From Escherichia coli (GTDB taxonomy: Bacteria > Pseudomonadota > Gammaproteobacteria > Enterobacterales > Enterobacteriaceae), in NCBI RefSeq assembly GCF_050920415.1, contig NZ_CP169309.1: a stretch of DNA of 64,000 nucleotides; one strand, 5' to 3'. The notes under the pieces were generated by a model. That model worked only from the letters and a program-made list of their open reading frames with translations, searched no databases and was not told the DNA's origin. Shown here in pieces: positions 2,193-2,663 of the stretch (within the stretch, counting starts at the first letter, position 1; the number at the start of each line of letters is the position of its first letter). The position numbers and the translations under genes were made by a program.

Positions 2193-2663
2193 ATGACAAT
2201 ATCATGGAGCGTACCTTTTCCTGAATCAGAAACTGAACATGAGGGAATGCCTGTTTTCTGGAGATTCCAGGCGACAGTTGAAGAAGATGGAATCAAAATA
2301 TTAGCACTTCAATATATAGCTTTTCATCAGACAGAGCATTATGCATGGTTGGTTCCTGCGCATTGGATTGTTAATTTTAAACCAGCACCAAATCAGTGGT
2401 TACAGGAATGGAAACAAAGGAGAAATAGATATGCAATTAAGAAAGTAGCAAAAAATGCAGAAAGATCTTTTGCATTCCCAACGAAGAAACTTGCCATTGA
2501 GAGTTTATTGCGCCGGAAGAAATACCATTTAATGAGAATCAAACAAGATTTGGCTGTTGTATCAACTCTTGTTGATGGGATGAAGAATATTGATACATCA
2601 ACACCAGATATTGAATATAACTTTGGGCACAACCAAGAAACAGAAAATTGGGTATTTTATTAG
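2193..2663 (+). CDS. Hypothetical protein directly after N (ral/sieB position), AT-rich (156 aa)
   Basis: ORF starts 9 nt after the N stop; no family recognised. Confidence 0.45.
   Translation: MTISWSVPFPESETEHEGMPVFWRFQATVEEDGIKILALQYIAFHQTEHYAWLVPAHWIVNFKPAPNQWLQEWKQRRNRYAIKKVAKNAERSFAFPTKKLAIESLLRRKKYHLMRIKQDLAVVSTLVDGMKNIDTSTPDIEYNFGHNQETENWVFY

What the first reader, a model, noticed from the sequence alone, without database searches (positions are those of the whole stretch)
2193..2663. Unknown AT-rich gene immediately after N (ral/sieB slot)
A 156-aa ORF begins 9 nt after the N stop, is markedly more AT-rich than N or cI, and is followed by an intrinsic terminator (2766-2794). This is the slot where lambdoid phages carry anti-restriction (ral) or exclusion (sieB) functions; it is transcribed early from pL under N antitermination. 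I recognise no domain.
Basis: partly seen in the sequence, partly recalled or inferred. Interest (0 to 1): 0.55.

Follow-up and report, generated by a model that had tools for sequence, protein, structure and literature searches.

The report
Uncharacterised immediate-early phage gene after N
The ORF is a real, expressed phage gene, another copy of HK97 gp45 / 933W L0079, which sits just after the antiterminator N in many Shiga-toxin and other lambda-like phages; its function is still unknown and it has no recognisable domain or solved-structure relative.

Summary
There is a 156-aa ORF at 2193-2663 whose ATG lies 9 nt after the N stop. It has 36% GC against 51% for N, and a terminator follows at 2766-2794.

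It is not a new sequence. It is 97-98% identical to HK97 gp45, 933W L0079 and Phi24B vb_24B_11c (phrog_1636, unknown function), and it occurs in 597 of 5,426 complete E. coli genomes.

It behaves as a 625-bp cassette (RBS, ORF, invariant structured 3'UTR, terminator) that recombines behind at least five N families and in front of at least six different downstream genes.

pL carries repressor operators, so the gene should be silent in lysogens. The 933W copy is induced at RNA and protein level by ciprofloxacin.

It is not ral, because the two co-occur in one phage, and it does not look like an exclusion gene.

My best guess, at modest confidence, is a host-directed early counter-defence or takeover binder.

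The parts
1643..1684 (+). pL-like promoter (TTGACC-17-TATCTT, 1656-1684) overlapped by two repressor operators, ATAACnnnnGTTAT, at 1643-1656 and 1668-1681
   Evidence: Promoter scan. The operator motif occurs 3 times at OR (325, 350, 374) and twice here; 7 matches in the window against 1.7 expected, reached by 0 of 100 shuffles. It is the only +-strand promoter-like site between the cI-operon terminator and the ORF.
1731..1771 (+). nutL: boxA-like GCTCTTTAACA (1731-1741) and boxB hairpin (1755-1771)
   Evidence: The identical 17-mer occurs at 13-29 on the minus strand, the nutR position; 0 copies expected by chance. The hairpin appears in the predicted fold. The boxA consensus is from memory.
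1879..2184 (+). N-like antiterminator gene (101 aa, arginine-rich N-terminus)
   Evidence: phrog_271 'anti-termination protein N-like', E 3e-36. Annotated as N in the near-identical phage vB_EcoP-611R6.
2181..2806 (+). The mobile cassette: RBS, ORF, 3'UTR and terminator, shared at 94-99% DNA identity with 933W, HK97, H-19B and many Stx phages whose flanks differ
   Evidence: Megablast matches to the listed 933W-type phage records (H12-H30) start at query base 382, which is window 2181, and end at 1007-1011, which is window 2806-2810. Flank clustering of 88 loci.
2193..2663 (+). 156-aa ORF, orthologue of HK97 gp45 / 933W L0079 / Phi24B vb_24B_11c (phrog_1636)
   Evidence: Purifying selection. 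Protein detected on induction. AlphaFold2 pLDDT 95.1.
2676..2707 (+). Perfect 14-bp RNA hairpin in the 3'UTR. One pair is G-U, so it pairs fully only in the +-strand RNA.
   Evidence: dG -21.7 kcal/mol, z -8.1, matched by 0 of 200 shuffles. No substitution across all cassette-bearing loci.
2766..2794 (+). Intrinsic terminator, the first one downstream of pL (equivalent of a tL1)
   Evidence: The same hairpin plus T-run starts exactly 104 nt after the stop in 68 of 84 loci. Most of the other E. coli-type loci carry one of two different hairpin-plus-T-run sequences at that place, judged by eye. HK97's record annotates a putative terminator there.

Best explanation
The ORF is a real protein-coding gene. 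It is the local copy of the HK97 gp45 / 933W L0079 family, a non-essential accessory cassette of lambda-like phages.

It is transcribed from pL in the same immediate-early, N-independent transcript as N, because the first terminator comes only after it. It is silent in the lysogen, because the repressor sits on pL.

The product is an 18.6-kDa basic protein (pI 8.8) predicted with high confidence to be a small beta-sheet or barrel followed by a long Lys/Arg-rich helix. It has no conserved catalytic-looking motif.

My inferred mechanism is that it acts stoichiometrically in the first minutes of infection or induction. It would bind a host component, a nucleic acid or a nucleic-acid-handling protein, and so neutralise a host barrier. 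That makes it a counter-defence or host-takeover factor rather than a regulator of the phage's own circuitry.

Shown: gene identity, expression on induction, cassette structure, transcript architecture (from sequence), and fold novelty. Inferred: the host-directed target and the counter-defence role.
For: Identity. It matches phrog_1636 full length at E 1.6e-110 and is 97-98% identical to HK97 gp45, 933W L0079 and Phi24B vb_24B_11c.

Real gene. dN/dS is about 0.1, with 22 synonymous against 5 non-synonymous variable codons. EDL933_1363 RNA rose 66.7-fold and its protein 6.2-fold and 8.4-fold after ciprofloxacin.

Immediate-early. No terminator-like site lies between pL and the stop codon in the window, 933W or HK97, and one follows the gene. 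A terminator is kept after the gene in nearly all loci, in three unrelated sequence versions.

Silent in lysogens. Operators overlap pL, there is no other +-strand promoter-like site, and expression is strongly inducible.

Accessory and host-directed. The same protein, at least 96% identical, follows at least five different N families (window type, 933W/HK97 type, PA28 type, lambda type and others). It precedes at least six different downstream genes. Its partner therefore cannot be specific to one N, nut site or immunity type. Related phages carry other genes in the slot instead. GC is 36% against a 49% background.

Lytic-cycle role. Distant relatives (20-30% identity) sit in early gene arrays of other phages. 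These include the 74.7-kb Pantoea myovirus LIET2, a Salmonella phage where it is the first gene of an early operon, and phage contigs where it lies near RecT, Erf or Kil.

Anti-restriction neighbourhood. It lies next to ral in phi296, two genes after a Lar restriction-alleviation gene, and within two to three genes of DNA methyltransferases.

Binder rather than enzyme. Across the 75-sequence superfamily alignment only A101 is invariant, with G33, T47 and K87 nearly so. The protein is basic, pI 8.8.

Against: A basic protein is the opposite of the acidic DNA-mimic anti-restriction proteins. Early arrays hold many kinds of genes, so guilt by association is weak.

A nucleic-acid-binding regulator of host or phage transcription or RNA fits the same data. 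The transcript architecture is inferred from consensus scans, not from RNA ends.
Confidence: 0.38

Rival explanations
1. It is a nucleic-acid-binding regulator. A small basic beta-barrel-plus-helix protein made with N would bind RNA, DNA or the transcription machinery (Rho, Nus factors, RNAP). It would tune early transcription, termination at the adjacent terminator, or the lysis-lysogeny decision.
Against: All fold matches are below significance. The protein pairs with at least five N families and several immunity types at 96% identity or more, so it is not a cofactor of one particular N or nut. Many lambdoid phages lack it. No HTH or other known DNA/RNA-binding domain is detected.
Confidence: 0.25
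2. It is an accessory factor of phage recombination or replication, or a host-killing or growth-arrest function of the pL operon comparable to Kil, Gam or Ea10.
For: It lies in the operon that carries ssb/Ea10, cIII, kil, gam, bet and exo. Distant homologues lie near RecT, YqaJ or Erf.
Against: There is no consistent adjacency to any one recombination gene. It is separated from them by a terminator and is absent from many phages with the same recombination module. It shows no similarity to known recombination mediators.
Confidence: 0.15
3. It is a superinfection-exclusion or abortive-infection gene, sieB-like, that protects the lysogen.
For: The slot carries a SieB-like gene in Sakai Sp15. Low GC is typical of morons.
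Against: It is on the same strand as pL with no promoter of its own, and pL is overlapped by operators. It rose 66.7-fold in RNA on induction. There are no PADLOC hits, and the AlphaFold model is a compact soluble fold with no membrane-like helix. Homologues also occur in early arrays of non-lambdoid phages.
Confidence: 0.05
4. The functional unit is mainly the RNA: the structured 3'UTR and terminator, for example a 3'UTR-derived sRNA or a processing or stability element. The ORF would be secondary.
For: The 3'UTR folds with z -4.4 and its first hairpin with z -8.1. It is less variable than synonymous sites of the ORF: about 9 variable positions in 103 nt against 22 synonymous-only variable codons, with none in the hairpin. 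A terminator hairpin with a U-tail is a typical Hfq-binding module (from memory).
Against: The ORF itself is under clear purifying selection and its protein is detected. Relatives at 20-60% identity keep the protein but not this UTR (L008 and L009). Rfam has no match. The two roles are not exclusive.
Confidence: 0.07

Closest known systems
HK97 gp45 / 933W L0079 / Phi24B vb_24B_11c / EDL933_1363 (phrog_1636, 'hypothetical protein')
   Same: 97-98% amino-acid identity over all 156 residues. Same position right after N, and the same 3'UTR and terminator.
   Different: Three amino-acid differences from the commonest allele. Here it follows a 101-aa N type with only 8 nt between the genes. An IS629-disrupted TolA-like gene lies downstream.
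Lambda/P22 Ral (restriction alleviation), the classical occupant of the post-N slot
   Same: Small, promoter-less, early pL-operon accessory gene just downstream of N. Non-essential.
   Different: No sequence similarity. Ral is about 66 aa (size from memory; the ral annotated in phi296 is 201 bp). Ral and this gene co-occur in tandem in phi296. In lambda, ral lies beyond tL1 and needs N (from memory), whereas this gene lies before the first terminator.
Lambda/P22 SieB and the SieB-like ECs_2995 of Sakai Sp15
   Same: They occupy the same variable region between N and ssb/cIII.
   Different: ECs_2995 is on the opposite strand, and SieB has its own promoter and acts in the lysogen (from memory). 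This gene depends on pL and is inducible. No sequence similarity.
T7 gene 0.3 (Ocr), the paradigm of a first-expressed anti-restriction protein
   Same: By analogy only: among the first proteins made after DNA entry, small, non-enzymatic.
   Different: Ocr is a strongly acidic DNA mimic (from memory), whereas this protein is basic. There is no fold or sequence similarity.
Sakai Sp5 ORF21 (ECs1180)
   Same: Same slot immediately after N in a closely related Stx2 phage, also with no domain. It was reported as impossible to delete (PMC5155283).
   Different: 83 aa and unrelated in sequence: no BLASTP alignment and hhalign probability 0.1%.

Membership tests
HK97 gp45 / 933W L0079 family (phrog_1636) | Full-length profile match | tested here: met
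   E 1.6e-110, residues 1-156 on profile positions 1-156 of 156.
HK97 gp45 / 933W L0079 family (phrog_1636) | High identity to the named members | tested here: met
   tblastn gives 97.4% to HK97 gene 45 and 98.1% to 933W, Phi24B and BP-4795.
HK97 gp45 / 933W L0079 family (phrog_1636) | Synteny: downstream of N on the pL strand, followed by a terminator | tested here: met
Ral (restriction alleviation) | Sequence or profile similarity to Ral | tested here: not met
   PHROGs and Pfam give no Ral hit. phi296 annotates a separate ral gene next to its copy of this gene.
Ral (restriction alleviation) | Alleviates type I restriction | not testable with these tools
   Needs plating assays on EcoKI/EcoBI hosts.
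SieB-type superinfection exclusion | Sequence or profile similarity | tested here: not met
   No PHROG, Pfam, NCBIfam or PADLOC hit.
SieB-type superinfection exclusion | Expressed from the prophage independently of pL | tested here: not met
   No promoter-like site between pL and the ORF. Operators sit on pL. RNA rose 66.7-fold on induction. The sequence evidence comes from consensus scans only.
[not shown]
   hhalign of the 75-sequence family profile against memory-derived AP2 and lambda Int N-domain sequences gave probability 0.4% and 0.9%. None of the 75 members has a Pfam AP2 or Arm hit.
[not shown]
   [not shown]
Known anti-phage defence systems (PADLOC) | Match to any defence-protein model | tested here: not met
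   0 families at E up to 1.
Intrinsic terminator (first pL terminator, tL1-like) | G+C-rich hairpin followed by a T-run, at a conserved position | tested here: met
   Termination in vivo and its suppression by N were not testable.

The most novel reading that the evidence does not exclude
gp45/L0079 founds a new structural family with no counterpart among solved structures. Its members would be immediate-early phage proteins, spread through gammaproteobacterial phages, that disable a host immune or nucleic-acid-surveillance component. Alternatively they would hijack Rho, Nus or RNA machinery through a Tudor/KOW-like barrel. The equally conserved structured 3'UTR would release a regulatory RNA. 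This would assign a function to one of the earliest-expressed genes of the major Shiga-toxin phages.
Probability: 0.25. Interest if true: 0.7.

Novelty: new member of a known kind. Interest (0 to 1): 0.4.

Why it matters
The gene is carried by 933W-type Stx2 phages, many Stx1 phages, HK97 and about 11% of complete E. coli genomes. It should be one of the first two proteins made when these phages infect or are induced. Yet I found no functional study of it, and it has no relative among solved structures.

Knowing its target would explain part of how Stx phages establish infection or induction, which is the step that releases Shiga toxin. It could also add a new family to the catalogue of phage counter-defence or host-takeover proteins.

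As a genome-scan finding, however, it is a re-discovery of a long-catalogued hypothetical gene, not a new element.

Tried and rejected
- **Domain and family libraries.** Pfam on the protein and on all 75 family members found nothing at E <= 0.001. NCBIfam and PADLOC found nothing.
- **PHROGs.** Only unknown-function families matched: phrog_1636, 13631, 18686, 37429, 25384 and 28215.
- **PDB sequence searches.** Searches with the protein and with the family profile returned only noise, E >= 0.1.
- **AP2 / arm-type DNA-binding hypothesis.** Rejected at sequence level by hhalign.
- **Homology to Sp5 ECs1180.** This is the undeletable ORF in the same slot. Homology was rejected.
- **Repeat-protein hits.** P0056 and P0081 in the profile search are spurious.
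- **Wider protein searches.** Two database-wide searches found only proteins named 'hypothetical' or unnamed, and no real domain fusions.
- **Literature.** Searches for L0079, vb_24B_11c, NP_049479, WP_000167595, AAD25424, AAF31125, phrog_1636, 'HK97 gp45' and EDL933_1363 found no functional study in the held library. A search combining HK97 or 933W with anti-defence terms found none either.
- **Accessory-gene screens.** The protein is not in the supplementary sequences of two such screens.
- **3'UTR.** It matches no Rfam family. It is not in the prophage anti-sRNA or Pas sRNA papers, and its sequence is not in the searched literature.
- **Technical failures.** The search for related loci with the divergent alignment failed because no stretch was conserved enough. 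Several metagenomic contigs were too short to give context.

Full report

Yes. The ORF listing gives a 156-aa ATG ORF at 2193..2663 on the + strand. The preceding 101-aa ORF at 1879..2184 ends 8 nt upstream. GAGGTGAG lies at 2183-2190, a Shine-Dalgarno-like sequence at normal spacing.

The upstream ORF is an N antiterminator. It matches phrog_271 at E 3e-36. It is preceded by a boxB-type hairpin at 1755-1771, and an exact copy lies on the other strand at 13-29, as expected for nutL and nutR.

GC content is 36.3% (GC3 28%) for the ORF. It is 50.8% for N, 43.3% for cI and 49.2% for the window. A terminator-like hairpin at 2766-2787 followed by seven T's is present, with dG -13.2 kcal/mol.

**2. 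What is it?**

It is not an orphan. The DNA from 2181 to about 2806 is 94-99% identical to a segment present in many E. coli and Shiga-toxin phage records. By tblastn the protein is 98.1% identical to the product of 933W L0079 (ST933Wp19), Phi24B vb_24B_11c and BP-4795. It is 97.4% identical to HK97 gene 45 and to an unannotated ORF of H-19B. Every record calls it 'hypothetical protein' or 'Gp45'.

It matches phrog_1636 (unknown function) over its whole length, E 1.6e-110. The gene is found at 832 places in 597 of 5,426 complete E. coli genomes, always annotated as hypothetical.

It is a genuine gene:
- Among 87 full-length copies (36 alleles), 22 variable codons are synonymous-only and 5 change the amino acid. 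dS is about 0.02-0.1 against dN of about 0.008.
- Orthologues at 54-83% identity exist in Salmonella, Cronobacter, Pectobacterium, Brenneria and Rosenbergiella, with 40 invariant residues.
- In EDL933 the only gene between the Ea10/ssb-like gene and N of BP-933W is EDL933_1363. That gene rose 66.7-fold in RNA at 2 h, and 6.2-fold and 8.4-fold in protein at 3 and 12 h, after ciprofloxacin (PMC11125564, Table S1). The assignment to L0079 is by position.

**3. Anatomy of the locus**

The unit that moves is a 625-bp cassette. Matches to the listed 933W-type phage records begin at window 2181, the last bases of N, and stop at 2806-2810, just after the terminator.

I clustered the flanks of 88 loci (80 from IMG/VR). 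The gene lies behind at least five unrelated N-like proteins: the window/611R6 type, the 933W/HK97 type, the PA28 type, true lambda N, and others. It lies in front of at least six different downstream genes: cIII (HK97), ssb/Ea10 (933W), a gp17-like gene, a TolA-like coiled-coil gene (this window), and others.

In 933W and HK97 the 58-nt N-gp45 spacer is a remnant of the 3' end of the window/611R6-type N gene. This marks a recombination joint inside the conserved C-terminus of N.

A terminator nearly always follows the gene. In 68 of 84 loci the same GCCCTC...GAGGGC hairpin plus T-run starts exactly 104 nt after the stop. Most of the remaining E. coli-type loci carry one of two unrelated hairpin-plus-T-run sequences instead, as judged by eye.

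The scans find no terminator-like site between pL and the end of the ORF in the window, in 933W or in HK97. HK97's depositors annotated the same putative terminator. In lambda, by contrast, tL1 directly follows N (established knowledge, from memory).

The straightforward reading is that N and this gene form the immediate-early leftward transcript. The gene does not need N to be expressed.

The only +-strand promoter-like site upstream is pL at 1656-1684. It is overlapped by two copies of the palindrome ATAACnnnnGTTAT, which also occurs three times at OR. The gene should therefore be repressed in the lysogen, which agrees with its strong inducibility.

**4. The protein**

It is 18.6 kDa with pI 8.8. 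Pfam, NCBIfam, PADLOC and PDB sequence searches find nothing.

A profile search of 1.84 billion cluster representatives found 87 proteins. Besides fragments and two spurious repeat proteins, these include about 70 distant relatives (18-26% identity, 115-165 aa) that belong to phrog_13631 and phrog_1636. None has a Pfam domain, a meaningful name or a real domain fusion.

Across this superfamily only A101 is invariant, with G33, T47 and K87 nearly so. The recurring motif is K-[KR]-[VI]-x-K...[RS]-x-[FY]-A-[FHY]-x-[TS]-K-x-x-A...R-K-x-x-[QH]-x-x-[HR]-L. Nothing looks like a catalytic motif.

With the 22-sequence alignment AlphaFold2 gave pLDDT 74. With the 75-sequence alignment it gave pLDDT 95.1 and pTM 0.82. 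The model has a long beta-hairpin (19-46) plus a third strand (50-55), two short helices (56-74, absent in the 115-119-aa minimal homologues), a short strand (83-86), a 33-residue helix (98-130), and an ordered C-terminal tail.

From the motif 'FAFPTKKLA' I suspected an AP2 or arm-type DNA-binding domain. I dropped that idea.

The long helix carries L106, L113, L120 and V127 at seven-residue spacing and is rich in Lys and Arg (read). This is compatible with dimerisation or nucleic-acid binding, but that is inference only.

**5. Context of distant relatives**

They lie in early gene arrays of phages:
- behind N, among Kil, Gam, RecT or Erf genes, in enterobacterial prophage contigs;
- downstream of RecT and YqaJ in another contig;
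- as the first gene of an early operon in Salmonella phage NX263;
- second in an early operon of a Vibrio phage;
- inside arrays of small genes of the 74.7-kb Pantoea myovirus LIET2 and of a Klebsiella phage.

In several cases anti-restriction-type genes are close by. Examples are a cytosine methyltransferase two genes upstream in LIET2, a DNA methylase three genes downstream, a Lar restriction-alleviation gene two genes upstream, and ral directly upstream in phi296.

**6. How it most likely works**

Three facts constrain the function.

First, it is dispensable for the phage type. Sakai Sp5 has an unrelated 83-aa ORF in the slot, Sp15 has a SieB-like gene on the other strand, and lambda has ral.

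Second, an almost invariant protein is combined with many N and immunity types. Its partner is therefore not a phage-specific site or protein. It is something common to the hosts.

Third, it is made first and only in the lytic programme.

Together with the lack of catalytic signatures, this points to a stoichiometric binder of a host component that acts at the very start of infection or induction. That means a counter-defence or host-takeover factor. I put this at about 0.4.

The main rival, at about 0.25, is a nucleic-acid-binding modulator of transcription or RNA. Its support is the basic charge, the weak resemblance to Tudor/KOW-like barrels, the linkage to N, and the conserved structured 3'UTR.

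A recombination, replication or host-killing accessory role (0.15) and a mainly RNA-level function of the cassette (0.07) are less likely. A sieB-like exclusion role (0.05) is poorly compatible with the promoter and operator layout and with the inducibility.

It is not ral. There is no similarity and the two genes co-occur.

**7. Comparison with what is known, and novelty**

As a sequence it is already catalogued as HK97 gp45 / 933W L0079 / phrog_1636. The window adds one more copy, with three amino-acid differences from the commonest allele, behind a 101-aa N type. Two IMG/VR loci are 100% identical to it.

As a function it is unassigned. I found no paper in the held library that studies it, and it is absent from the supplements of two accessory-gene screens. 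The library lacks most subscription journals, so this is not proof of absence.

The closest experimental hint concerns the slot rather than the gene. Sp5 ORF21 (ECs1180), in the same position, could not be deleted (PMC5155283), but it is unrelated.

I rate it as a further member of a known kind, the early pL-operon accessory genes of lambdoid phages. Its family is uncharacterised and structurally unmatched.

**8. Verdict**

The finding re-discovers a long-known hypothetical gene. What this analysis adds is the cassette structure, the immediate-early placement before the first terminator, the high-confidence model with no match among solved structures, the wider superfamily, and the invariant structured 3'UTR. 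Interest is 0.4.

Noticed in passing
window 2664-2800 (+), hairpin 2676-2707: The 3'UTR of the gene is strongly structured. The whole region has z -4.4. Its first hairpin has 14 bp, dG -21.7 kcal/mol and z -8.1, and one G-U pair means it pairs fully only in the +-strand RNA. The UTR is almost invariant across loci, with no change in the hairpin, while the ORF shows 22 synonymous-only variable codons. It could be a processing or stability element or a 3'UTR-derived sRNA. It has no Rfam match and its sequence is not in the searched literature.
   Followed up: partly
window 2682-2654 (- strand): A promoter-like site (TACACA-17-TAAAAT, 9 of 12 matches) points antisense into the 3' end of the ORF. 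The same site is found in 933W and HK97. The match is weak and could be chance.
   Followed up: no
window 2891-4200 (IS on the - strand); disrupted gene at 2808-2890 and 4201-5088: An IS629/IS1203 copy, 97% identical over 1,310 bp to the Sakai element, carries the ALIL frameshift pseudoknot (Rfam RF01497, 3749-3865). It is flanked by a 3-bp ATC duplication (2888-2890 and 4201-4203). It interrupts the TolA-like coiled-coil gene that follows the terminator, and that gene is intact (340 aa as called from an upstream start) in IMG/VR locus L015.
   Followed up: yes
window 1148-1444 (+), terminator 1449-1468: A 98-aa, 31% GC ORF with an N-terminal hydrophobic segment lies directly after cI and before a strong bidirectional terminator. 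This is the rex/stk slot, so it is probably co-transcribed with the repressor in lysogens. It matches phrog_18389 (unknown function) and only weakly matches ZorB/MotB and MscL. It is a better candidate than the finding itself for a prophage-expressed exclusion or moron gene.
   Followed up: partly
L002 (933W) 2455-2512; L011 (HK97) 3943-4000: In 933W the 58-nt spacer between N and L0079 reads like the last codons of the window/611R6-type N gene (...VTCVGRQKMKLGSKPLI*). It is a relic of the recombination that joined the cassette to a different N. HK97 has a spacer of the same length, which I did not read.
   Followed up: partly
window 325-387 and 1643-1681: The repressor operators are copies of ATAACnnnnGTTAT, three at OR and two at OL. 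There are 7 matches in the window against 1.7 expected.
   Followed up: partly
L102 (Sakai Sp5) 8721-8972 (-): ECs1180, the unrelated 83-aa ORF in the same post-N slot of Sp5, was reported as impossible to delete, as was ECs1184, which lies after cI (PMC5155283). The slot may hold genes with strong phenotypes.
   Followed up: partly
AFDB entries A0A1B8SZU4 and A0AB37QL73: Two distant family members of 143-150 aa are labelled 'Transposase' in UniProt. Nothing supports the name, and it looks like annotation carry-over.
   Followed up: no
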